Shown in pieces: positions 8,434-48,497 of a DNA stretch of 64,000 nucleotides. Below the pieces are notes generated by a model. It had not been told where the DNA came from and did not search any database. It saw only the letters and a list, made by a program, of their open reading frames with translations. The translations under genes were made by a program, and so were the position numbers. Position 1 is the stretch's first letter. Each line of letters begins with the position of its first letter. The stretch is from Escherichia phage vB_EcoM_CRP22: the sequence record OQ708377.1. The stretch is one strand, 5' to 3'.

Positions 8434-9849
8434 ATGAGCGAGTTATTTAAACATGCGCACCTTCATGTAGGTCGAACTGAAAATGGTGCTGTAAACCATA
8501 CTTCATCAATGTCTGCTCTGGTAGACTTCTACAAAGCCGCTGGCTCAAGCCGTAGCAATGTAGAAATCTTACCAGACCTGTTCTACAAAGCTTTGCGTGA
8601 GGATGTTGATGTTGCAGTTCGTATTTTACTGCATATGCGAGATGTACGAGAAGGTATGGGTGAGCGTAAAGCTTTCCGAACTGTTTTGCTTCAAACGATT
8701 GAAGATAAGGTTTTAGAACCTACACAGGTTCTTCGCATTATGGATAAGATTGCAGAACTTGGTCGTTTTGATGACTTCAAAATCTTCGTAGGTACTCGTT
8801 TCGAGACAGATGCCTTCAAACATTTAGAAGCAGCATTACTAGACCCTGCAACAGCAGGTTTAGCGGCTAAGTGGTTACCACGAGTAAAACCACGCCACAA
8901 ACAGTTTGTAAAACGTTTCTGTAAGTTTGCAAACTTAAGCGAGAAGGAGTATCGCACACTGTTATCTGCACTGTCTGATACGGTTGAGCAAAAAATCTCT
9001 GCTAATGAGTTTGGTAAGATTGACTACAGCAAGATTCCTTCACTCGCTGCTGCACGTTACCAAAAACTCTTTAACCGTAAAGATGGGGAACGTTACAAAG
9101 CTTACATCGAGTCCCTCTCAAAAGGTGAGGCTAAGATTAACGCTGGTGCTGTTTACCCATATGATGTGATTAAATCTATTAAGTATGGTAATGCAGATGT
9201 TGCTAACGAGCAGTGGAAAGCACTACCAAACTGGATGGCAGAAGGTGAAAACATCTTGTGTATGACTGATGTTTCAAGCTCAATGTCTTGGGTGAATCTT
9301 GGCTCAATTACTGCCCTTGATATTGGTGTATCACTTGCCTTGTATGTAGCAGAACGCAATACAGGTTGCTTTAAAGATGAGTTAATGGTCTATTCAACAA
9401 ACCCTCATTTCATTGAACTGAGTGGTGATTTACGAAACCGTCATCGTCAGGTGATGCGTCATGTTGAATATGGTTCAACTAACTTACAAGCAGCCTTTGA
9501 CCGCATTCTTGAGACAGGTAAGAGAAACAACTTGACTCAGAAAGATATGCCAAGTAAGCTTATCATCTTCTCCGATATGGAGTTCAATCAGGTTGATGGA
9601 GCTAACGGTCGTACAAACTTTGAAGCAATTCAGAGCAAGTACAAAAAAGCTGGATATGAGATGCCACAACTGGTATTCTGGTACTTAGCAAACCGTAATG
9701 GCACTTGCGAAGTGTCTGTTAAGGATAATGGTGTAGCAATGGTATCAGGGTTCTCTCCAGCCACTTTAAAAGCTCTGCTTGGTGGTGAGAAGTTTGACCC
9801 AATCAGCGTAATGCTCAAAGCAGTAATGATTGACCGTTACATCTGGTAA
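8434..9849 (+). CDS. von Willebrand factor A (vWA) domain protein; possible Ro60/TROVE-like protein
   Basis: 471 aa; MIDAS-type DxSxS motif (CMTDVSSSMSW) after a ~270-aa N-terminal region; Ro60 assignment is inference from context only. Confidence 0.6.
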   Translation: MSELFKHAHLHVGRTENGAVNHTSSMSALVDFYKAAGSSRSNVEILPDLFYKALREDVDVAVRILLHMRDVREGMGERKAFRTVLLQTIEDKVLEPTQVLRIMDKIAELGRFDDFKIFVGTRFETDAFKHLEAALLDPATAGLAAKWLPRVKPRHKQFVKRFCKFANLSEKEYRTLLSALSDTVEQKISANEFGKIDYSKIPSLAAARYQKLFNRKDGERYKAYIESLSKGEAKINAGAVYPYDVIKSIKYGNADVANEQWKALPNWMAEGENILCMTDVSSSMSWVNLGSITALDIGVSLALYVAERNTGCFKDELMVYSTNPHFIELSGDLRNRHRQVMRHVEYGSTNLQAAFDRILETGKRNNLTQKDMPSKLIIFSDMEFNQVDGANGRTNFEAIQSKYKKAGYEMPQLVFWYLANRNGTCEVSVKDNGVAMVSGFSPATLKALLGGEKFDPISVMLKAVMIDRYIW

Positions 9850-10506: not shown

Positions 10507-10594
10507 GTGTCGTTATCCCGTAGATGGTAGCGGTGGGGACTGTAAATCCCTTGTCATTGAGACTCGGTAGGTTCGACTCCTACACGGCACACCA
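10507..10594 (+). tRNA. tRNA-Tyr (anticodon GTA), long variable arm
   Basis: Acceptor gtgtcgt/acggcac, anticodon stem gggga/tccct with loop ctGTAaa, long extra arm, T-arm gtagg-ttcgact-cctac, CCA. Confidence 0.7.
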
Positions 10595-10616
10595 ACACTT
10601 AGCGAGATACTTAGTT

Positions 10617-11045
10617 ATGAGAGATGAAGTATACAAATCACAACTTGGTATGAGTTTAGGAACTGCACAAAACAGACTAGTAAAAGATTTGCTATTCGAT
10701 TTTATATGTAAAACAAATCAAAATAGATGTTTTCAGTGCGGAAAAGAAATGACTAGGGATGATTTCTCCATCGAGCATAAGGTTCCGTGGAGACATAGTG
10801 AAAACGCAAAAGAGCTTTTCTTTTCACTGGATAATATCTCTTATAGTCATCTTAAATGTAATATGAAAGCAGCAAGACCAGCACAGATAAGTGAAAGAAA
10901 ACATAAAACAGTTGAACACGGAACTGCGTATAGCTATTACAAAGGCTGTAGATGCGAGGAGTGTAGGTTGGCTAAGAATGCTGCTAGCAGGAAGAACTAT
11001 AGCCCAGAAAGGCGTAGGAAGAAGTATTTAAGAAATGGCACATAG
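10617..11045 (+). CDS. HNH endonuclease (free-standing, inside tRNA array)
   Basis: 143 aa from internal ATG; CFQCGKEM...EHKVPW...HLKCN zinc-binding HNH-like motifs; the track ORF start at 10524 overlaps tRNA-Tyr and is rejected. Confidence 0.7.
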   Translation: MRDEVYKSQLGMSLGTAQNRLVKDLLFDFICKTNQNRCFQCGKEMTRDDFSIEHKVPWRHSENAKELFFSLDNISYSHLKCNMKAARPAQISERKHKTVEHGTAYSYYKGCRCEECRLAKNAASRKNYSPERRRKKYLRNGT

Positions 11046-11273: not shown

Positions 11274-11404
11274 CAGAAGACCGTTTACAGCAAAACTTAA
11301 ACAATCTATTTCTCGGTAAAGAAAAGGCGAAGGTTCGATTCCTTCACTCGGCAGATGTCGAGTTGGTGTAATGGTAGCACTTAAGATGATAAACAACGGT
11401 CTGG
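11274..11404 (+). ncRNA. Candidate structured ncRNA: circularly permuted tRNA-like module enclosed by an 8-bp stem (possible Y-RNA/YrlA-like element)
   Basis: Linear order is stem strand agaccgtt, T-arm gaagg-ttcgatt-ccttc, acceptor 3' strand actcggc, 4-nt loop, acceptor 5' strand gtcgagt, D-arm gtgt-aatggta-gcac, stem strand aacggtct; the acceptor halves pair over 7 bp. Confidence 0.35.
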
Positions 11405-11405
11405 T

Positions 11406-11551
11406 AATTATCTTTGCAGTAGCTTATGTGGCTAATTATGTCGTCCCATGAGTGCCGATGAATTTCCTTAGCATGATTCTAGATTAGCTTAATAGGGAAT
11501 GACTCTACAGACCCTTTAGCAAGGTCTGCGTAGGTTACTGCAAAGATAATT
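11406..11551 (+). ncRNA. Candidate structured RNA domain closed by a 16-bp stem
   Basis: aattatctttgcagta (11406-11421) is the perfect reverse complement of tactgcaaagataatt (11535-11550), enclosing ~112 nt with an internal cagacc...ggtctg hairpin. Confidence 0.3.
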
Positions 11552-11555
11552 TAAT

Positions 11556-11631
11556 GGAAGTGTAGCAGAATGGTGATGCGGCAGACTTTTAATCTGACAG
11601 GCGATGGGTTCGAATCCATCCACTTCTACCA
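11556..11631 (+). tRNA. tRNA-Lys (anticodon TTT)
   Basis: Acceptor ggaagtg/cacttct, anticodon loop ctTTTaa, T-loop ttcgaat, CCA. Confidence 0.6.
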
Positions 11632-11635
11632 ATAT

Positions 11636-11712
11636 GGTTCAGTCGCAGATAAGGTAATGCAGGGGTCTCATAAGCCCTATGAATGTGGGTTCGATTCCCA
11701 TCTGAACCTCCA
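11636..11712 (+). tRNA. tRNA with anticodon CAT (Met, initiator-like, or Ile2)
   Basis: Acceptor ggttcag/ctgaacc, anticodon loop ctCATaa on a stem with three consecutive G-C pairs, T-loop ttcgatt, CCA. Confidence 0.7.
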
Positions 11713-11714
11713 AT

Positions 11715-11790
11715 GCTGTGAAAGCACATATGGATGTGCATTCGGCTGATAACCGAAAGGAAGAAGGTTCGAATCCTTCTCACAGTACCA
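11715..11790 (+). tRNA. tRNA-Ile (anticodon GAT)
   Basis: Acceptor gctgtga/tcacagt, anticodon stem ttcgg/ccgaa with loop ctGATaa, T-arm gaagg-ttcgaat-ccttc, CCA. Confidence 0.7.
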
Positions 11791-11805
11791 ATTTCAATAA
11801 AGTTG

Positions 11806-11834
11806 TTGACATTGAGATGTGACCACTTTATAGT
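11806..11834 (+). promoter_or_regulatory. sigma70-like promoter inside the tRNA array
   Basis: TTGACA - 17 nt - TATAGT, preceded by A-rich tract aaagttg. Confidence 0.5.
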
Positions 11835-12126
11835 AACTAAAATACTTCATAATATGTATAATTCAAACACCAATACATGAGTATTAGACGTAATGCAATG
11901 TGGGGAAATTTGTTGTACATATTCTGAATAGTTTTCGTTGCGTAGCGTCTATTTTGCAAATTTAAAATAAATGCAAACGACAATGTTTTTCTGGCAGTAG
12001 CTTGATAGGCTAAACACCAGTGAGGTCTTCCAATCCCTCATCAAAGAATTTGGCGTACTCGCCCACGGTATGATTAATAAGGTGGGCATCTTTAAGGGTT
12101 TTTAAGAGAGTCTTTAAAGATAATTA

Positions 12127-12208
12127 CGGGGCGTATCTCAGCTGTCTTCTAAACAGCCGTTAACCGAGTAAGTGGAGTATGCGGGTTCGAGTCCTGCCGC
12201 CTCGACCA
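12127..12208 (+). tRNA. Atypical tRNA-like gene, possibly Arg (anticodon TCT); D-arm not resolvable
   Basis: Acceptor cggggcg/cgcctcg, T-arm gcggg-ttcgagt-cctgc, CCA; clean stem gctgt/acagc with loop ctTCTaa but no canonical D-arm by eye. Confidence 0.4.
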
Positions 12209-12222
12209 ATTTTGGAGAAATC

Positions 12223-12570
12223 ATGAAAACTTGTATTAGGTGCAAACTTAGCAAGGATGAAAATGATTTCTACATGAAAGATGGTAGAAGAACTCATTCA
12301 TACTGTAAAAAGTGTGTTAATGAGCAAACCATAGAAAGACAAAGAGCACTTAAACTCTCAGCTATTGAGTACAAAGGTGGTGTTTGTCAGGATTGTGGTA
12401 AAAGGTATCATCCAGCAGTGTATGACTTCCATCATTTGAATCCTTCAGAGAAAGATTTTAACATTGCTCATAGAAGAAGTCTTAAGTTCTCTCAGGAGCT
12501 TAAGAACGAACTTGACAAATGTGTTTTGCTATGTTCAAATTGCCATAGGGTAAGACATGCAAAGTATTAG
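12223..12570 (+). CDS. HNH endonuclease (free-standing, inside tRNA array)
   Basis: 115 aa from internal ATG (MKTCIRCK...); CxxC pairs and FHHLNP...LLCSNCHRVRH HNH motif; the track start at 12172 overlaps the preceding tRNA-like gene. Confidence 0.7.
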   Translation: MKTCIRCKLSKDENDFYMKDGRRTHSYCKKCVNEQTIERQRALKLSAIEYKGGVCQDCGKRYHPAVYDFHHLNPSEKDFNIAHRRSLKFSQELKNELDKCVLLCSNCHRVRHAKY

Positions 12571-12707
12571 TTAGCAGATTGCTTAGACGACCTTATCGGG
12601 TCTCCGTGTAAGGAGGTGGTCTGTATCTCATGTTTTCCAGAACATGTAAATAATCTGAGAAGGGGCTTTACAGTGTTGAGATAATACGGTAAGCTTCGAA
12701 TTATAAT

Positions 12708-12790
12708 ATGGGACGATGTTAAGACTCTAAGGCATGAGCAACGGCTTCCAACACCGTTTCAAAGGGGTTCAACTCCTCCGTCCCATGCCA
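12708..12790 (+). tRNA. Atypical tRNA-like gene with an apparent 9-nt anticodon loop
   Basis: Perfect acceptor atgggac/gtcccat, T-loop ttcaact, CCA; best anticodon helix aacgg/ccgtt encloses cttccaaca (9 nt); D-region longer than canonical. Confidence 0.4.
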
Positions 12791-12803
12791 AAGTCTTATT
12801 AGG

Positions 12804-12893
12804 GGTAGGTAGCGGCTAATGGTAGCCAAACTGTCTTGAAAACAGTTGCCACTGTAGAGATACGGTGAGGGTTCGACTCCTTTACTTACCGCC
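12804..12893 (+). tRNA. tRNA-Ser (anticodon TGA), long variable arm
   Basis: Acceptor ggtaggt/acttacc, anticodon stem actgt/acagt with loop ctTGAaa, long variable arm, T-loop ttcgact. Confidence 0.7.
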
Positions 12894-13148
12894 TAATAAG
12901 ATTTAAAGCCAAGCTTCATTCGGATGTTGCTTTGGTATCCCTCGTGTATTGTCGTACACACTGATAAAGCACCTGGTAGGTGTCACGGAGAAGAGATAAT
13001 ATCAAGCTCTCCAAAGGTTCTAGTCACCGGATTAAACAAGACTATGCAAAGACCAATTTAGGTCTTTTTAGAGGGCTTCTAAGGTTATTACAGCTTGTTG
13101 TGGAACCTTGTTGCTTAGGTTCTTAGAAGTTCTCTAAAAAGATTTAAT

Positions 13149-13225
13149 GCACCTATAGCCCAATTGGTAGAGGCAGCAGACTTAGAATCTGTTCAGTGTG
13201 AGTTCGAATCTCTCTAGGTGTACCA
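13149..13225 (+). tRNA. tRNA with anticodon TAG (Leu-type), short variable arm
   Basis: Acceptor gcaccta/taggtgt, anticodon stem gcaga/tctgt with loop ctTAGaa, T-loop ttcgaat, A73, CCA. Confidence 0.6.
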
Positions 13226-45201: not shown

Positions 45202-45735
45202 TCAAGATAGTTTTGCAAACTCTCCGTGGAGTTTCACAGCAGCTTCACAGTAAGCTTTATGGGCTTCTTCTGGTGTGTCATGGTAACCTAAAAACATCTT
45301 CTTACCTTTATAACTTATCTGTGCGACCCACTTACCAGACTTCTTCTTAAGACTTACACCCTTGTACCCAGATTTATTGGTGACTAGTTTACCTTTATTC
45401 CAAGCACTTTGAAAGTCATCTGCCTCCCTTAAGTTTACAATCCTGTTGTCAAGTGAATCTCCGTTGATATGGTCAATGATACCTTTTGGCATCTTGCCAT
45501 ACACGTAAAGCCATGCGAGTCTGTGTGCTTTATGTGCTTTCTTGTCAAAATAGATACTAATCTGTTTATGACCACTTGAATCAGTCTGGATATTACCTGC
45601 CACCTTTCCTGCATAATTACTATTAAAAACACTAACAGCTCTTGATTTACCTTCTCTACGAAGCCAAGTAAAGACCCCTGTTTCGGGGTCATAGTGCAGC
45701 AGCTCCTTTAAACGTTTTTGTAAAATTAAATCCAT
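45202..45735 (-). CDS. HNH homing endonuclease with AP2-like DNA-binding domain
   Basis: 177 aa; HNH motif IDHINGDSLDNRIVNLR and AP2-like GYKGVS...GKWVAQISYKGKKMFLGYHDTPEEAHKAY. Confidence 0.75.
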   Translation of the reverse strand: MDLILQKRLKELLHYDPETGVFTWLRREGKSRAVSVFNSNYAGKVAGNIQTDSSGHKQISIYFDKKAHKAHRLAWLYVYGKMPKGIIDHINGDSLDNRIVNLREADDFQSAWNKGKLVTNKSGYKGVSLKKKSGKWVAQISYKGKKMFLGYHDTPEEAHKAYCEAAVKLHGEFAKLS

Positions 45736-45738
45736 TAA

Positions 45739-48438
45739 TCAATGTACCTCATACCAGCTCTTACCAACCTTTGCTGTACCAGTTACAAGTGTTTCTTTCC
45801 TCAAACCTAAGTTTTTTGAAGCTTGTCCATACATCCAGTCAGCAATTGCTTTCATATCATGTGTCATACCCTCTGGACATTCCCAACTATTTTCATCGTG
45901 ATATGCCAGAAGTAACCTTGCTCCGATAGCTGGTTTTCGAGCATTCAGTTTTGTCAGGCCATCTTCACAGGCTTTTCTTGCTGCTAGGTTGATGGCCTCA
46001 TTCTGAATCTGTGCTTCCGAACTCATCAGGAGGTAGTTCAGTAGTTTATGTGGAGATTTGCACCATATCCATGCTCCAGCGACCCTGATATAACCACCTT
46101 TAGCAATTGAAGAGTTCTTCCCAAAAACCTCTTCCAGAGCCTTTTTAGACGCCTTAAAATCAGCTTCTAAGCTATCAAGTAACTTCTTAATCTTTGGCAA
46201 ACGCATATAGTAAGTTTGTTTAGTCAATGCACCTTCTTCCGTAGATGATGCCTTGATAGTTTTTGCAAACTTCTCGTCTCCGGCTCCAAATAACAGGGCG
46301 TAGATGCCATTTTTGCTCTTCTTACGACCTTTTGTAATCTCGTGAAGAAGTTCCTCATCCTGTGTCTCCCTGCAACGAACAATATCTTCTTCCTTGTTCA
46401 GACCAAAGTAAATACTATTCAGTGTATGTGCATCAGTACCTGTGTAGACTTCGTAGAGGTCATTCTCAGCATCATAACGAAGATACTTATCAGTTTCTGG
46501 ATTGAGGTACTTATCGAGATGCTTGCAATAGTATCTCCCATCCTCTTGCTTGGTAAATTCTACTGACTCTTTACCTTCAGTTACCGCTTTGGTGAAGTCT
46601 TTATCACCCATAAAGTTACACAGTAAAACAAGCTGTGCAGAGTTCTGGTCAACTGAAACGATATTAGTCCCTTCCTCGCAAATCCAAACCTCCCTCATAG
46701 GCGCTCCATAGACAGCAGCACCAGACGGTACGTTTACAATACCATATTGTGTCATACGTCCAGTTGAAGTACCAAACACCATTGCACCAGCACTAAGGCG
46801 ACCATCAGGACGAATCTGGTTCAACCAACCTTTTTCATCATCCTTTGAGTTCTCAATAGTCCTACGTCGGTGCATCAAAGTATAGTATTTAGCAATCTTC
46901 TGTCCAAGCTCACCTTCAATCGTATCATAAGATGATTCAGTAAGTTTTGGTGAAGTACGGATTAAGCAAGGCTCAAGCAAATCTGTGTACTTCTTCACAG
47001 ACCAGTTATGTTCAATGTACTGGACACCTTCGTGTTCAACATAACTCAAACCACACCGTTCCACCATCTCATCCCACTTAGGATGTTTTGTAATCATCTT
47101 TTTGTTGTCTTTGAAGCGACAAACCTTAACAGGACGACCATCAGAGTCTTTCTTATAGTTCCAGTCATCTGGAATCCAACCAACTGATTTCAAGTAGTCT
47201 TTGACAACTGCTACCTGAGTCATACGAGAAACTTCGAACTCAATTGGTGTATATGGTGCATCAATCAAACCTGTGTAGCGACTTGACTCAAGCTCAAAGT
47301 GGTTAACAACATGGCTGTTATAGTACTTCACAGTTTTAACTGTTTTTACTGGCTTCCAGTCTTTGCACTTCTTACCAATCTTTGCATTCAACTCATTGCA
47401 AATTGCACGAGCATCCTTCATTGCTACAAAGCCTTCCTTGTACTCTTCACCAGTTACAGAGTTGGTTGGTGTATAGCAATTCCGCTTTTCAATGTTAAAA
47501 ATCTTGGTAGTTGGTTTACCAAATGGCTTGATTTCATATGTCTGCATCTCACCGTTGCGTACCTGTTGACGATACTTTGTCTTAGGGTACTTGGTAATCC
47601 TCTTCAGTCCATCTGCATGGCCAAATGCTTCAACATACTCATTCCAAGCTTTTGCAAATTCTTCTCCAGTGACTTTACCTTTAGTCTTAATAGTTGGAGG
47701 AAGATGTGGTTCAACTTCTGAAGCAAGCTCATTAGTCAACTTGTCAAGTTCCTTTACATGAAACTCCATAAGCTCTTTATCAGCTTTCCAACCATTGATA
47801 GCCTGTTGACTCATCCAGAAAGATGTTTCTTTAGCTCGCATGTAGGTTTCATAGGTGTCTACGCCACACTTCTTTAGCTTCAGATATTCATTATCCAATG
47901 CACGTTTAGTTTTGGCGTTGATACGGATATCTTCTACAACACGAGTGAAGATTTCTGCATTCCACACACCCCAATGTTCAATCTCTGGTTTACGGACACC
48001 AACACGAGCACCCCATGCTGCCAAGCCATGAGCACCTTTATAGCCTTTTGGAGTTGGCCTATCCATCCACTGAACACGAGACTGGATAAGAGAATCCTGA
48101 AAGAAATTACTCCACGGCTTACACTTTGGATTATCAAAGTTCCACAAATCAGGTGCAATGTGATTGAAAACCCACCAGTCATACCCTAAACCATTATGGA
48201 TGCAAAGTCGTTTTGCCTTTAACGCAAACTCAACACCTTCACGCAAGCCACCCTTAATGTACTTGGTATACTTGTGACCGAGGATAGGCTCATCTGTAAA
48301 GACCCATACAGGTGGCTCTTCATCGTCAGATTTATAGTCTGCGAAAGCCATTACGTGTACTTTAGTGAACTCAAGGAGTAAACCATCAGTTTCTGTATCA
48401 CCAACTAAATGTAAGTTTTTAAAATCTACGTTTTCCAT
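45739..48438 (-). CDS. DNA polymerase, family A (Pol I-like) with 3'-5' exonuclease domain
   Basis: Exo I motif LVGDTETDG near N-terminus; polymerase motifs KSKNGIYALLFGAG and LLAYHDE; start set to second ATG (MENVDF) preceded by GAGGGAG (track ORF extends to 48471). Confidence 0.9.
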   Translation of the reverse strand: MENVDFKNLHLVGDTETDGLLLEFTKVHVMAFADYKSDDEEPPVWVFTDEPILGHKYTKYIKGGLREGVEFALKAKRLCIHNGLGYDWWVFNHIAPDLWNFDNPKCKPWSNFFQDSLIQSRVQWMDRPTPKGYKGAHGLAAWGARVGVRKPEIEHWGVWNAEIFTRVVEDIRINAKTKRALDNEYLKLKKCGVDTYETYMRAKETSFWMSQQAINGWKADKELMEFHVKELDKLTNELASEVEPHLPPTIKTKGKVTGEEFAKAWNEYVEAFGHADGLKRITKYPKTKYRQQVRNGEMQTYEIKPFGKPTTKIFNIEKRNCYTPTNSVTGEEYKEGFVAMKDARAICNELNAKIGKKCKDWKPVKTVKTVKYYNSHVVNHFELESSRYTGLIDAPYTPIEFEVSRMTQVAVVKDYLKSVGWIPDDWNYKKDSDGRPVKVCRFKDNKKMITKHPKWDEMVERCGLSYVEHEGVQYIEHNWSVKKYTDLLEPCLIRTSPKLTESSYDTIEGELGQKIAKYYTLMHRRRTIENSKDDEKGWLNQIRPDGRLSAGAMVFGTSTGRMTQYGIVNVPSGAAVYGAPMREVWICEEGTNIVSVDQNSAQLVLLCNFMGDKDFTKAVTEGKESVEFTKQEDGRYYCKHLDKYLNPETDKYLRYDAENDLYEVYTGTDAHTLNSIYFGLNKEEDIVRCRETQDEELLHEITKGRKKSKNGIYALLFGAGDEKFAKTIKASSTEEGALTKQTYYMRLPKIKKLLDSLEADFKASKKALEEVFGKNSSIAKGGYIRVAGAWIWCKSPHKLLNYLLMSSEAQIQNEAINLAARKACEDGLTKLNARKPAIGARLLLAYHDENSWECPEGMTHDMKAIADWMYGQASKNLGLRKETLVTGTAKVGKSWYEVH

Positions 48439-48497
48439 TTGCACTCCCTCTAATTCATTAACCTCATACATTACTGCAAAAAATTATAAAAAGCAAG

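What the first reader, a model, noticed from the sequence alone, without database searches (positions are those of the whole stretch)
12127..12790. Two tRNA-like genes with non-canonical architecture
12127..12208 has a good acceptor stem, T-arm and CCA but no resolvable D-arm; its only clean internal helix is gctgt/acagc with loop ctTCTaa. 12708..12790 has a perfect acceptor stem and T-arm, but the best anticodon helix (aacgg/ccgtt) encloses a 9-nt loop cttccaaca and the D-region carries extra nucleotides. These may be functional atypical tRNAs, pseudogenes, or further tRNA-mimic RNAs.
Basis: seen in the sequence. Interest (0 to 1): 0.5.

Follow-up and report, generated by a model that had tools for sequence, protein, structure and literature searches.

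The report
Rearranged phage tRNAs for Arg, Trp
Two genes in this Felix O1-like phage that tRNA finders skip are most likely working tRNAs (arginine-UCU and tryptophan-CCA) with rebuilt cores; the arginine one belongs to a widespread phage-borne class whose anticodon arm is nested inside the D-stem, which I could not find described.

Summary
Both elements are real and sit at the stated coordinates, in the tRNA array of a Felixounavirus.

**Candidate 1 (12127-12208)** has an acceptor stem, T-arm, ACCA and a UCU anticodon hairpin. A further helix (12137-12140 / 12165-12168) encloses that hairpin. A D-loop-like segment (AAGUGGAGUAU) follows it and runs straight into the T-stem.
- About 70 unique relatives from unrelated phages covary in all four helices.
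- 65 of 66 topology hits carry Arg anticodons (UCU, CCU, UCG, ACG), and all Arg members keep GG-A at the A20 position.
- In sister phages the same slot holds either this gene or a canonical tRNA-Arg(UCU) (11 versus 13 loci, never both, never neither).

**Candidate 2 (12708-12790)** is a cloverleaf with a CCA anticodon, G73 and A1-U72. It has a 9-nt acceptor-to-D connector instead of 2 nt, and a conserved 31·39 mismatch.
- It alternates with canonical tRNA-Trp (22 versus 2 loci) and supplies the only amino acid missing from the 25 called tRNAs.

Best reading: functional atypical tRNAs. Nothing has been tested experimentally.

Caveats:
- RNAalifold does not predict the nested helix.
- The window copy carries G3·U70, the AlaRS mark.
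- The literature I could search is incomplete.

The parts
12127..12208 (+). Candidate 1: whole gene, rearranged ('nested') tRNA-Arg(UCU), 82 nt including the encoded CCA
   Evidence: Sequence. RF00005 31.2 bits. Family model R1 97.5 bits. Family alignment A1.
12127..12133 (+). Candidate 1 acceptor stem, 5' strand (pairs with 12198-12204); includes G3.U70
   Evidence: All 7 pairs show double-sided changes across the family; 99.5% of cells paired. G3.U70 noted.
12134..12136 (+). Candidate 1 invariant U8-A9-U10 connector
   Evidence: Invariant in 54 of 54 and 73 of 73 unique members.
12137..12140 (+). Candidate 1 outer (D-stem-like) helix, 5' strand CUCA; pairs with 12165-12168 and encloses the anticodon arm
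   Evidence: Pairs 12-41 (UA 33, AU 11, GC 9, CG 1) and 13-40 (CG 44, UA 6, GC 4) have no unpaired cases. Mutual information 1.56 and 0.98, among the top 12 column pairs. The rival pairing breaks in 21 of 54. Not predicted by RNAalifold.
12141..12157 (+). Candidate 1 anticodon arm GCUGU-CUUCUAA-ACAGC; anticodon UCU at 12148-12150
   Evidence: All 5 pairs covary. Family anticodons are UCU, CCU, UCG and ACG, all Arg.
12158..12164 (+). Candidate 1 conserved 7-nt bulge CGUUAAC (family consensus C-R-U-Y-A-A-N) on the 3' side of the composite arm
   Evidence: C32, U34, A36 and A37 are invariant. Its role is inferred only.
12165..12168 (+). Candidate 1 outer helix, 3' strand CGAG
   Evidence: See 12137-12140. 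The junction pair 14.39 is mostly A.C or C.A.
12169..12180 (+). Candidate 1 relocated D-loop-like segment U-AAGUGGAGUAU (A14/R15, two variable positions, G18 G19, A20 ... U48 equivalents), running directly into the T-stem
   Evidence: Invariant apart from the two positions that correspond to D-loop 16/17. GG-A is typical of Arg tRNAs: 85% of canonical phage Arg against 2-27% of other isotypes. The canonical allele's D-loop is AACUGGACA.
12181..12197 (+). Candidate 1 T-arm GCGGG-UUCGAGU-CCUGC
   Evidence: 98.9% of cells paired; 3 pairs with double-sided changes.
12198..12208 (+). Candidate 1 acceptor 3' strand, A73 and CCA
   Evidence: Family discriminator: G 36, A 31, U 5, C 1. CCA is encoded in 50 of 73.
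12214..12570 (+). HNH homing-endonuclease ORF between the two genes; an optional cassette, absent from several sister phages
   Evidence: Pfam PF01844, 18.5 bits, below its cutoff. Annotated as HNH in relatives. Candidate 1 to candidate 2 spacing is about 143 nt in loci that lack it.
12708..12790 (+). Candidate 2: whole gene, tRNA-Trp(CCA) with an expanded connector, 83 nt including CCA
   Evidence: Sequence. Cloverleaf minimum-energy fold. Alignment A2 and pair counts. ARAGORN mitochondrial mode calls Trp(cca).
12715..12723 (+). Candidate 2 9-nt acceptor-to-D connector GAUGUUAAG (normally 2 nt); the first G could pair with C12779 to give an 8-bp acceptor
   Evidence: Invariant from Felixounavirus to Pectobacterium phage Arno18. 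The same connector occurs in a Lys(UUU)-like element in the unrelated contig L184. Other expanded connectors ending in ..UAA occur in phage arrays, with none in the null.
12724..12739 (+). Candidate 2 D-arm ACUC-UAAGGCAU-GAGC
   Evidence: Pair 21-32 of A2 is UA in 5 and AU in 4 sequences; the helix is 100% paired.
12740..12758 (+). Candidate 2 anticodon arm: pairs 26-44 and 27-43 to 30-40, a conserved 31.39 mismatch (C.A here, C.C in Arno18), anticodon CCA at 12748-12750
   Evidence: 4 of 5 pairs show double-sided changes. The mismatch is present in all 9 variants.
12763..12790 (+). Candidate 2 T-arm (A.C mismatch plus GGGG/CCUC, loop UUCAACU), acceptor 3' strand, G73, CCA
   Evidence: Pair 59-73 of A2 is GC in 7 and UA in 2. 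G73 and A1-U72 match the bacterial Trp identity set.

Best explanation
Both elements are phage-encoded tRNAs that work in translation despite rebuilt cores.

Candidate 1 decodes AGA (and possibly AGG) as arginine.
- Its chain order is: acceptor 5' strand, U8-A9-U10, one strand of a D-stem-like helix, the anticodon arm with no spacer, a conserved 7-nt bulge, the other strand of that helix, a D-loop-like segment (A-A-N-N-G-G-A-G-U-A-U), the T-arm, the acceptor 3' strand, A73 and CCA.
- Relative to a normal tRNA, the module 'connector + D-stem strand + D-loop' has changed places with the anticodon arm.
- Inferred, not shown: the short helix stacks on the anticodon stem as the D-stem normally does; the relocated GG still contacts the T-loop to form the elbow; the A after GG serves as the ArgRS determinant A20, together with C35, U36 and A/G73.

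Candidate 2 decodes UGG as tryptophan. It is a normal cloverleaf with CCA, G73 and A1-U72, but it has about 7 extra nucleotides between the acceptor stem and the D-stem, and an anticodon stem whose bottom pair (31.39) is always mismatched.

In Felix O1-like phages each gene is an allelic alternative to a canonical tRNA-Arg(UCU) or tRNA-Trp in the same array slot.

Why the odd architectures persist is not shown. The most plausible idea, which is speculative, is resistance to host nucleases that target tRNA while host synthetases still recognise them.
For: Shown by tools:
1. Family breadth. About 85%-identical copies of candidate 1 occur in Felixounavirus, Asteriusvirus (121Q, 7t3), Vequintavirinae, Sugarlandvirus and a Streptomyces phage. 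Scans of viral contigs gave 96 and 93 matching stretches, yielding 67-73 unique members.
2. Structure. 94.6% of cells are paired; the covariation score is 0.767 against 0.188 in shuffles (0 of 500 reach it), and slid controls give at most 0.156. The nested helix pairs 12-41 and 13-40 never break. All 12 highest mutual-information column pairs are model pairs.
3. Identity. A search that left the anticodon free found only the Arg anticodons UCU, UCG and CCU. A motif-free topology search found 66 elements against 0 in the null, 65 of them Arg (adding ACG). The one exception (UAU, Ile; L141) has GG-U-U and A73, matching the Ile identity set. GG-A is Arg-typical among 779 canonical phage tRNAs.
4. 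Functional equivalence. In Ounavirinae loci, candidate 1 and canonical Arg(UCU) are mutually exclusive (11 versus 13 loci, 0 both, 0 neither). The same holds for candidate 2 and canonical Trp (22 versus 2). The allele swap is precise to about 3 nt from the gene's 5' end. Elsewhere only 6 of 99 loci with a permuted Arg also have a canonical Arg with the same anticodon.
5. Demand. AGA is the window's most-used Arg codon (299 of 724) and UGG occurs 201 times. With candidate 2 counted, all 20 amino acids are covered.
6. Candidate 2 structure. 99.4% of cells paired, 8 pairs with double-sided changes, none in the slid controls. G73, A1-U72, G3-C70, G4-C69, G5-C68, A9 and CCA match the bacterial Trp set.
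7. Phage-borne. Only 9 pattern hits in 185,579 species genomes, and the true ones lie on MAG contigs with tRNA arrays. No match in 5,426 E. coli genomes.
Against: - No expression, processing, aminoacylation or decoding data exist for either RNA.
- RNAalifold recovers the acceptor, anticodon and T stems of the candidate 1 family but not the 3-4 bp nested helix. The single-sequence minimum-energy fold is different and no better than shuffled sequence (z = -0.14). Support for the helix is comparative only.
- The tertiary equivalences (U8-A14, 15-48, G18/G19 with the T-loop, A20) are inferred from invariant nucleotides, which cannot covary.
- The window copy has G2-C71, G3.U70, G4-C69 and A73, the AlaRS determinant set, so some alanine charging cannot be excluded.
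- Candidate 2 has U2-A71 rather than G2-C71 and a non-standard 31.39, and only 9 distinct sequences support its structure. In Arno18 the acceptor stem needs a bulged U.
- The loci were collected with sequence patterns taken from candidate 1, so the family sample is biased towards Arg-like sequences. The topology searches reduce this bias but do not remove it.
Confidence: 0.72

Rival explanations
1. They are tRNA mimics with a job outside decoding, for example decoys that soak up or blunt host tRNA-targeting nucleases, or regulators. They keep tRNA-like ends but are not used by the ribosome.
For: Unusual cores that standard tools reject. Phage tRNAs are documented counter-measures to tRNA-cleaving defences (PMC10264068, PMC11555353, PMC11464382, listed). 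Phage-versus-host tRNA differences cluster around the D-loop (PMC12475279). A tmRNA-like RNA lies immediately upstream of candidate 1.
Against: A decoy would not need every anticodon to stay within the Arg codon boxes across two codon families, nor isotype-matched A20/U20 and N73. It also would not be expected to replace the canonical decoder one-for-one in the same slot. A decoy function could exist alongside decoding rather than instead of it.
Confidence: 0.12
2. They are decaying pseudogenes: remnants of tRNA-Arg and tRNA-Trp damaged by insertions, deletions or homing-endonuclease traffic.
For: Homing-endonuclease ORFs are scattered through the array and one sits between the two genes. The Felix O1 genome paper already labelled some array members 'pseudo' (PMC3185647). 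Arno18's candidate 2 homologue needs an acceptor bulge.
Against: Purifying selection is evident. Compensatory changes occur in every helix of both RNAs. Loops and junctions are invariant across unrelated phage families, including a Streptomyces phage. The class is cleanly separated, at 91-97 bits against 36 or less. In nearly all arrays they are the only decoders of their codon.
Confidence: 0.04
3. In the enterobacterial-phage clade, candidate 1 is charged wholly or partly with alanine through G3.U70, so it is an AGA-reading Ala donor or a dual-identity tRNA rather than a plain tRNA-Arg.
For: The window copy has G2-C71, G3.U70, G4-C69 and A73, the bacterial AlaRS set. G3.U70 occurs in 16 of 22 canonical phage tRNA-Ala and in 0 of 46 canonical Arg. 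It is kept in 121Q and KB57 even though neighbouring pairs changed.
Against: G3.U70 occurs in only 7 of 73 family members, essentially one clade, and is not a family feature. AGA is the phage's most frequent Arg codon, so Ala insertion would damage most proteins. The same slot is filled by a canonical tRNA-Arg in sister phages. The ArgRS determinants A20, C35 and U36 are intact.
Confidence: 0.07
4. Candidate 2 is specialised to read UGA as well as UGG (a programmed read-through tRNA-Trp), because its anticodon stem is effectively 4 bp in the canonical register.
For: A tRNA-Trp(CCA) with a 4-bp anticodon stem raises UGA read-through in E. coli (PMC13092985). The 31.39 mismatch is conserved in every candidate 2 variant.
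Against: The published effect concerns unpairing at the top pair (27-43), not the bottom. TGA ends 14 of 63 long ORFs here, with no sign of avoidance or recoding, and most read-through extensions would be only 0-19 codons. Two sister phages replace candidate 2 with a canonical tRNA-Trp.
Confidence: 0.05

Closest known systems
Canonical tRNA-Arg(UCU), e.g. the sister-phage allele (L006 3132-3208; Sf16 L001 1043-1118)
   Same: Same array slot. Same anticodon loop CUUCUAA. Similar D-loop sequence (AACUGGACA versus AAGUGGAGUA) with A after GG. Same T-loop, A/G73 and encoded CCA.
   Different: Chain order. In candidate 1 the anticodon arm is nested inside the D-stem-like helix, the D-loop follows that helix and leads straight into the T-stem, there is no separate variable loop, and a conserved 7-nt bulge is added.
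D-armless mitochondrial tRNAs (e.g. nematode mt-tRNA-Ser; review PMC7609411)
   Same: No D hairpin between the acceptor and anticodon stems. Rfam's tRNA model aligns candidate 1 in exactly that way.
   Different: The mitochondrial tRNAs lose the D-arm and its elbow contact and become flexible. Candidate 1 keeps a covarying D-stem-like helix and an invariant GG-containing loop, both relocated, and it works with ordinary bacterial factors rather than adapted ones.
Circularly permuted tRNA genes of the red alga Cyanidioschyzon merolae (PMC3728597, listed)
   Same: Segments of a tRNA appear in a non-standard order in the gene.
   Different: In the alga the whole gene is permuted (3' half before 5' half), and by my own knowledge processing restores a normal tRNA. 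Here the acceptor strands are at the ends as usual, only internal core segments are swapped, and nothing suggests the order is restored.
8/4 and 9/3 tRNAs (allo-tRNAs; phage Ser and His 8/4 tRNAs), Mukai et al., PMC5389517
   Same: Non-canonical phage and bacterial tRNAs missed by standard tools. Candidate 2 can be drawn with an 8-bp acceptor (G12715-C12779) and a 4-bp T-stem.
   Different: Those were described for Ser, His, Cys and Sec, with long variable arms or Sec-like D-arms. Candidate 2 is Trp, has a 5-nt variable loop, and its hallmark is a 7-nt single-stranded insertion before the D-stem. The 8/4 reading is untested because the nucleotides involved are invariant.
tRNA-Trp(CCA) with a 4-bp anticodon stem (PMC13092985)
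   Same: Trp anticodon CCA, with one of the five canonical anticodon-stem pairs not formed.
   Different: Published cases are mainly unpaired at the top (27-43). Candidate 2 is unpaired at the bottom (31.39) and gains a 26-44 pair. There is no evidence of UGA reassignment in this phage.
tmRNA tRNA-like domain
   Same: Acceptor stem with G3.U70 and A73, a T-arm and no normal D-arm. A tmRNA-like tag template lies just upstream.
   Different: Candidate 1 has a full anticodon arm with a conserved Arg anticodon. Both acceptor strands lie within 82 nt. It occurs in many phages without the upstream element, and that element is also found upstream of the canonical allele.

Membership tests
tRNA (cloverleaf; Rfam RF00005 / ARAGORN) | 7-bp acceptor stem, discriminator base, 3' CCA (encoded or added) | tested here: met
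   Both candidates. Covarying in both families.
tRNA (cloverleaf; Rfam RF00005 / ARAGORN) | T-arm: 5-bp stem and a 7-nt UUCRANY loop | tested here: met
   Candidate 1 meets it fully. Candidate 2 has 4 pairs plus a conserved A.C mismatch, with loop UUCAACU.
tRNA (cloverleaf; Rfam RF00005 / ARAGORN) | Anticodon arm: 5-bp stem, 7-nt loop with U33 and a purine at 37 | tested here: met
   Candidate 1: GCUGU-CUUCUAA-ACAGC. Candidate 2 has U33 and A37, but 31.39 is a conserved mismatch, so the loop is effectively 9 nt.
tRNA (cloverleaf; Rfam RF00005 / ARAGORN) | D hairpin (10-25) between a 2-nt connector and the anticodon arm | tested here: not met
   Candidate 1 has no hairpin there; the D-stem-like helix encloses the anticodon arm. 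Candidate 2 has the hairpin, but its connector is 9 nt rather than 2.
tRNA (cloverleaf; Rfam RF00005 / ARAGORN) | Reaches the detection threshold of standard tools | tested here: inconclusive
   Candidate 1: RF00005 31.2 bits against a gathering score of 29, but no ARAGORN call. Candidate 2: no Rfam hit at E<=10 and no ARAGORN call except in mitochondrial mode. tRNAscan-SE was not available. Deposited records label candidate 1 homologues as TERM, Leu(taa), OTHER, plain 'tRNA', or nothing.
Bacterial tRNA-Arg (ArgRS substrate) | C35 and U/G36 in the anticodon | tested here: met
   C35 is invariant, and position 36 is U or G in all 65 Arg-type members. Rule taken from PMC9976931.
Bacterial tRNA-Arg (ArgRS substrate) | A20 in the D-loop (the major determinant) | tested here: inconclusive
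   An invariant A follows the GG of the relocated loop. That pattern is Arg-typical in canonical phage tRNAs (85% against 2-27%). Whether it occupies the position-20 pocket in three dimensions cannot be tested here.
Bacterial tRNA-Arg (ArgRS substrate) | Discriminator A73 or G73 | tested here: met
   The window copy has A73. Across the family: G 36, A 31, U 5, C 1.
Bacterial tRNA-Arg (ArgRS substrate) | Actual arginylation and AGA decoding | not testable with these tools
   Needs charging assays or a reporter. G3.U70 in the window copy is a possible competing AlaRS signal.
Bacterial tRNA-Trp (TrpRS substrate) | C34-C35-A36, G73, A1-U72, G3-C70, G4-C69, G5-C68, A9 | tested here: met
   All are present in candidate 2, against the rule. 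Some variants have G1.U72. The A9 assignment depends on how the expanded connector is numbered.
Bacterial tRNA-Trp (TrpRS substrate) | G2-C71 | tested here: not met
   Candidate 2 has U2-A71; Arno18 has C2-G71.
D-armless (mitochondrial-type) tRNA | D-arm replaced by a short unpaired connector, with no D-loop/T-loop elbow nucleotides | tested here: not met
   A covarying nested helix and an invariant A-A-N-N-G-G-A segment are retained.
Permuted tRNA gene (C. merolae type) | 3' half encoded upstream of the 5' half, with mature ends internal to the gene | tested here: not met
   The acceptor 5' and 3' strands are at the two ends of the 82-nt gene, with CCA at the 3' end.
8/4 tRNA (Mukai et al.) | 8-bp acceptor stem plus a 4-bp T-stem (a 12-bp branch) | tested here: inconclusive
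   Candidate 2's minimum-energy fold uses G12715-C12779 as an eighth pair, but both nucleotides are invariant, so there is no covariation test.
tmRNA tRNA-like domain | No anticodon arm; acceptor strands from the distant 5' and 3' ends; alanine identity | tested here: not met
   Candidate 1 has a covarying anticodon arm and contiguous ends. ARAGORN calls no tmRNA. Only the G3.U70/A73 feature is shared.

The most novel reading that the evidence does not exclude
Candidate 1 represents a previously undescribed tRNA fold. The D-loop module and the anticodon arm have swapped places in the chain, yet the molecule is still charged by the host ArgRS and used by the ribosome. The fold has spread among unrelated phages, from enterobacterial myoviruses and jumbo phages to Streptomyces phages. 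It is used almost only for arginine, with one isoleucine case. It may persist because it escapes host nucleases that recognise the normal D-arm/anticodon-arm geometry. Candidate 2 would be a member of a second, rarer class of phage tRNAs with an insertion between the acceptor stem and U8.
Probability: 0.55. Interest if true: 0.85.

Novelty: new variant of a known kind. Interest (0 to 1): 0.75.

Why it matters
- **tRNA structure.** If candidate 1 works as a tRNA, the connectivity of the tRNA core is not fixed. An L-shaped, synthetase- and ribosome-competent molecule could be built with the D-loop placed after the anticodon arm. That would matter to tRNA structural biologists, and to people designing orthogonal tRNAs, because it would be a new natural scaffold.
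- **Annotation blind spot.** Felix O1-like and Moogle-like phages are published as lacking tRNA-Trp (and often Arg-UCU), for example '22 tRNAs' for Felix O1 and '26 tRNAs, 19 amino acids' for Sf14. They most likely encode decoders for all 20 amino acids. About 100 viral contigs carry an Arg tRNA that current tools miss or mislabel as a terminator suppressor, Leu or 'other'.
- **Phage-host conflict.** Phage tRNAs are now known to counter tRNA-cleaving defence systems. A remodelled D-arm/anticodon-arm region gives a concrete, testable candidate for structural rather than sequence-level escape.

Tried and rejected
- **Minimum-energy fold of candidate 1** (CUC paired with the second GAG at 12175-12177, and no anticodon hairpin). 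Rejected: that pairing breaks in 21 of 54 relatives, and the VpaE1 and 7t3 variants compensate within the anticodon hairpin.
- **Reading CGUUAAC as the anticodon loop**, as implied by the 'tRNA-TERM' and 'Leu(taa)' annotations. Rejected: no conserved stem flanks it, whereas CUUCUAA sits in a fully covarying 5-bp stem.
- **ARAGORN mitochondrial-mode parse of candidate 2** (D-stem UUAA/UGAG with a 13-nt loop). Rejected in favour of CUC/GAG, which covaries to CAC/GUG.
- **Candidate 1 as the tRNA-like domain of the upstream tmRNA-like RNA.** Rejected: the family occurs without that element, and the element occurs upstream of the canonical allele.
- **Wholesale UGA recoding by candidate 2.** No support from stop-codon usage.
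- **Wider scan for the GATGTTAAG connector**. Most of the 44 hits were chance matches lying upstream of ordinary tRNAs. Only L184 reproduced the architecture.
- **RNAalifold as an independent test.** It did not recover the nested helix. I report this as a weakness.
- **Literature.** Seven searches, two reviews of non-canonical tRNAs and two Felix/Moogle phage papers gave no description of either architecture. The held library lacks most subscription journals, so a prior description cannot be excluded.
- **Not used:** protein homology and structure tools, because the features are RNAs.
Full report
**Context.** The window comes from a Felix O1-like myovirus (Felixounavirus). Region 11400-13200 is 92-98% identical to many such phages. 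ARAGORN finds 25 tRNAs on the + strand between 10015 and 15245. They cover 19 amino acids, and only Trp is missing. Neither candidate is called. HNH homing-endonuclease ORFs interrupt the array, and one (12214-12570) lies between the two candidates.

**Observation check.** Both descriptions hold at the stated coordinates.
- Candidate 1 (12127-12208) has a 7-pair acceptor stem, a T-arm, ACCA and the hairpin GCUGU-CUUCUAA-ACAGC.
- Rfam's tRNA model reaches 31.2 bits (gathering score 29) only by deleting the D-arm and inserting 20 nt in the variable region.
- Candidate 2 (12708-12790) has a perfect acceptor stem, GCCA, and a T-stem of 4 pairs plus an A.C mismatch. Between the acceptor and a normal D-arm (ACUC-UAAGGCAU-GAGC) lie 9 nt (GAUGUUAAG) instead of 2.
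- Its anticodon helix can be read as AACGG/CCGUU with a 9-nt loop. Equivalently, it is a canonical-register stem with a C31.A39 mismatch and an added 26-44 pair.
- It has no Rfam hit at E<=10. It folds as that cloverleaf on its own. ARAGORN's mitochondrial mode calls it Trp(cca).

**Candidate 1 belongs to a large phage family.**
- Copies about 85% identical over the full length occur in unrelated phages: 121Q and 7t3 (about 350 kb), rV5-like Vequintavirinae, the T5-like Sugarlandvirus GZ8, and Streptomyces phage BoomerJR. They are annotated inconsistently as tRNA-TERM, tRNA-Leu(taa), tRNA-OTHER, plain 'tRNA', or nothing.
- Two pattern scans of viral contigs gave 96 and 93 matching stretches, yielding 67-73 unique members.
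- The same pattern hit only 9 stretches in one genome for each of 185,579 prokaryotic species. The genuine hits lie on MAG contigs that carry tRNA arrays.
- There is no match in 5,426 complete E. coli genomes.

**Structure of candidate 1.**
- On a 54-sequence alignment whose columns match candidate 1 numbering, the acceptor (1-7/72-78), anticodon (15-19/27-31) and T (55-59/67-71) stems covary strongly.
- So does a short helix, 11-14/39-42, that encloses the anticodon hairpin. Pair 12-41 is UA 33, AU 11, GC 9, CG 1, and pair 13-40 is CG 44, UA 6, GC 4, with no unpaired case. C11-G42 is invariant. The junction pair 14.39 is mostly A.C or C.A.
- Overall, 94.6% of cells are paired and the covariation score is 0.767, against 0.188 in shuffles (0 of 500) and at most 0.156 in slid controls.
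- The rival pairing from the minimum-energy fold fails in 21 of 54 sequences.
- All twelve highest mutual-information column pairs are model pairs.
- A covariance model separates the family (91-97 bits, including four untrained copies) from every canonical tRNA (36 bits or less).
- RNAalifold recovers the other three stems but not this helix. Support for the helix is therefore comparative, not thermodynamic.

**Reading the anatomy (inference).**
- After the helix's 3' strand comes U, then A-A-N-N-G-G-A-G-U-A-U, then the T-stem. This segment is invariant except at the two N positions. It matches a D-loop (A14, R15, variable 16/17, G18, G19, A20 ... A21) followed by a pyrimidine where Y48 would sit.
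- The canonical allele's D-loop in a sister phage is AACUGGACA.
- Relative to a normal tRNA, the module 'connector + D-stem strand + D-loop' and the anticodon arm have therefore changed places.
- The 5' helix strand runs into the anticodon stem with no spacer, so the two helices should stack as the D and anticodon stems normally do, and the relocated GG could still meet the T-loop.
- The conserved 7-nt bulge (C-R-U-Y-A-A-N) sits where a U8/A9-type connector would precede that module. Its role is unknown.
- None of these tertiary equivalences can be tested by covariation, because the nucleotides involved do not vary.

**Identity of candidate 1.**
- With the anticodon left free in the search, the loops found were CUUCUAA, CUUCUAC, UUUCUAC and UUUCUAA (UCU), CUUCGAA (UCG) and UUCCUAA (CCU). 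All are arginine, and one contig carries a UCG copy and a UCU copy side by side.
- Motif-free topology searches over all held loci gave 42 elements (strict, all Arg) and 66 (relaxed), against 0 in reversed sequence. The relaxed set was UCU 61, UCG 2, CCU 1, ACG 1, plus a single UAU (Ile).
- C35, U/G36 and A/G73 match the bacterial ArgRS determinants.
- The A after GG matches A20. Among 779 canonical phage tRNAs from the same loci, that A is found in 85% of Arg tRNAs and 2-27% of other isotypes.
- The Ile-anticodon member instead has GG-U-U and A73, as the Ile identity set would predict.

**Functional equivalence.**
- In terminase-anchored Ounavirinae loci with complete arrays, the slot about 225 nt upstream of candidate 2 holds either candidate 1 (11 loci) or a canonical 77-nt tRNA-Arg(UCU) (13 loci), never both and never neither.
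- The flanks are identical up to about 3 nt before the gene.
- Elsewhere, only 6 of 99 loci with a permuted Arg gene also have a canonical Arg with the same anticodon.
- AGA is the window's most-used Arg codon, at 299 of 724 Arg codons. The Felix O1 genome paper had remarked that a tRNA for AGA would be expected (PMC3185647).

**Candidate 2.**
- Homologues occur throughout Ounavirinae, in 235 phage records. There are nine distinct sequences, reaching as far as Pectobacterium phage Arno18.
- The connector GAUGUUAAG is invariant. The D-stem (CUC/GAG, CAC/GUG), anticodon stem (ACGG/CCGU, UAAG/CUUA, UAGG/CCUA) and T-stem (G-C to U-A) all covary. In total 99.4% of cells are paired and 8 pairs show double-sided changes, with none in the slid controls.
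- The 31.39 mismatch is conserved: C.A, or C.C in Arno18.
- CCA, G73, A1-U72, G3-C70, G4-C69, G5-C68 and A9 fit the bacterial Trp identity set. G2-C71 does not, because candidate 2 has U2-A71.
- Candidate 2 is present in 22 complete arrays that lack tRNA-Trp. It is absent from the 2 arrays (including wV8) that carry a canonical 71-nt tRNA-Trp plus an extra HNH gene at that position.
- A 2025 analysis of the Moogle-like phage Sf14 lists 26 tRNAs for 19 amino acids with no Trp (PMC12482277), so the homologue has gone unnoticed.
- The same connector precedes a Lys(UUU)-type cloverleaf in an unrelated contig (L184). Other expanded connectors ending in ..UAA occur with Cys, Lys and Trp anticodons in phage arrays, and never in reversed sequence. 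Candidate 2 therefore belongs to a sparse class with an insertion between the acceptor stem and U8.
- An 8-bp acceptor / 4-bp T-stem reading is possible but untestable.

**Caveats and rivals.**
- There are no experimental data for either RNA.
- The window's candidate 1 carries G2-C71, G3.U70, G4-C69 and A73, the AlaRS set. G3.U70 is found in 16 of 22 canonical phage tRNA-Ala, in 0 of 46 canonical Arg, and in 7 of 73 family members, essentially one enterobacterial-phage clade. Partial Ala charging is therefore possible, though it is hard to reconcile with the heavy use of AGA.
- A decoy or mimic role is not excluded and could coexist with decoding. Phage tRNAs are known to counter tRNA-cleaving defences, and phage-versus-host differences cluster near the D-loop.
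- Pseudogene status is contradicted by the covariation and by the occupancy data.
- UGA read-through by candidate 2 is suggested only loosely by work on 4-bp-stem tRNA-Trp, and stop-codon usage does not support it.

**Comparison with known kinds.** Candidate 1 works like a tRNA-Arg, but it fails the defining cloverleaf feature of a D hairpin beside the anticodon arm.
- It is not a D-armless mitochondrial-type tRNA, because the helix and the GG loop are retained.
- It is not a C. merolae-type permuted gene, because its ends are normal.
- It is not a tmRNA tRNA-like domain, because it has an anticodon arm.

Neither architecture appears in two reviews or surveys of non-canonical tRNAs (PMC7609411, PMC5389517) or in seven full-text searches. 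The library is incomplete, so prior description cannot be ruled out.

**Verdict.** The finding is real. The best explanation is two functional, structurally atypical phage tRNAs.
- Candidate 1 is the more remarkable: a discrete, widespread, almost Arg-specific tRNA class with rearranged core connectivity.
- I rate it a new variant of a known kind, with interest 0.75 and confidence 0.72 in the functional-tRNA reading.
- My confidence is lower (about 0.5) in the specific three-dimensional equivalences.

Noticed in passing
window 11806-12126 (+): The 336-nt 'gap' upstream of candidate 1 has a near-consensus sigma-70 promoter (TTGACA-17-TATAGT, 11806-11834). It also has a tmRNA-like tag template at 11972-12007: GCA AAC GAC AAT GTT TTT CTG GCA GTA GCT TGA TAG, which reads ANDNVFLAVA followed by two stops (compare SsrA ANDENYALAA). 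Rfam tmRNA_permuted scores 20.5 bits on that stretch, below its cutoff. The frame is conserved in Moogle-like phages through synonymous changes, and the following hairpin changes in a compensatory way. I found no acceptor stem or T-arm of its own.
   Followed up: partly
L141 5506-5582 (IMGVR_UViG_3300027976_000090): This is the one nested-architecture element with a non-Arg anticodon: UAU (Ile), with GG-U-U in the relocated loop and A73. The same contig also has a nested Arg(UCG) copy at 2864.
   Followed up: partly
L139 2689-2763; L093 10185-10274 (-): These are variants of the nested Arg architecture with an ACG anticodon. One has only a 3-nt bulge. The other has an extra hairpin inserted after the D-loop-like segment.
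   Followed up: no
L184 518-602 and 272-350 (IMGVR_UViG_3300038660_000290): A tRNA array contains a Lys(UUU)-type element with the same G-AUGUUAA-G connector and an 8-bp acceptor as candidate 2. It also contains a separate, uncalled Trp(CCA) element with an expanded connector and an odd D-arm.
   Followed up: partly
L053 10293-10371, L107 13811-13888, L154 (-) 7743: Uncalled cloverleaf elements with expanded acceptor-to-D connectors (GCGUUAAC, GACCUAA, CAACGUAAA) and Cys(GCA) or Lys(CUU) anticodons. Several contigs also hold about 80-nt elements (GGGUCUG...CAGAUCCAC) with an acceptor stem and T-arm but no obvious anticodon arm.
   Followed up: no
window 45202-48471 (-): A 910-aa family A DNA polymerase ORF ends in TGA and continues in frame, one codon later, into a 177-aa HNH_3 + AP2 homing-endonuclease ORF. 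This is probably a chance in-frame juxtaposition, but read-through fusion was not tested.
   Followed up: partly
window 8434-9849 (+): The ORF immediately upstream of the tRNA array carries DUF2828 and DUF7788. By my recollection DUF2828 is related to the TROVE/Ro-type RNA-binding proteins, which would make its position next to a tRNA array interesting. I did not examine this.
   Followed up: no
window 10507-10594 and 10524-11045 (+): tRNA-Tyr(gta) overlaps the start of a 173-aa HNH ORF. The Felix O1 genome paper labels this Tyr tRNA a pseudo-tRNA.
   Followed up: no
window 13056-13148 (+): The 255-nt gap between tRNA-Ser(tga) and tRNA-Leu(tag) contains a long imperfect hairpin, picked up only as weak plant-miRNA-model hits of 26.7 bits. 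Some sister phages have an ORF inserted in this gap.
   Followed up: no
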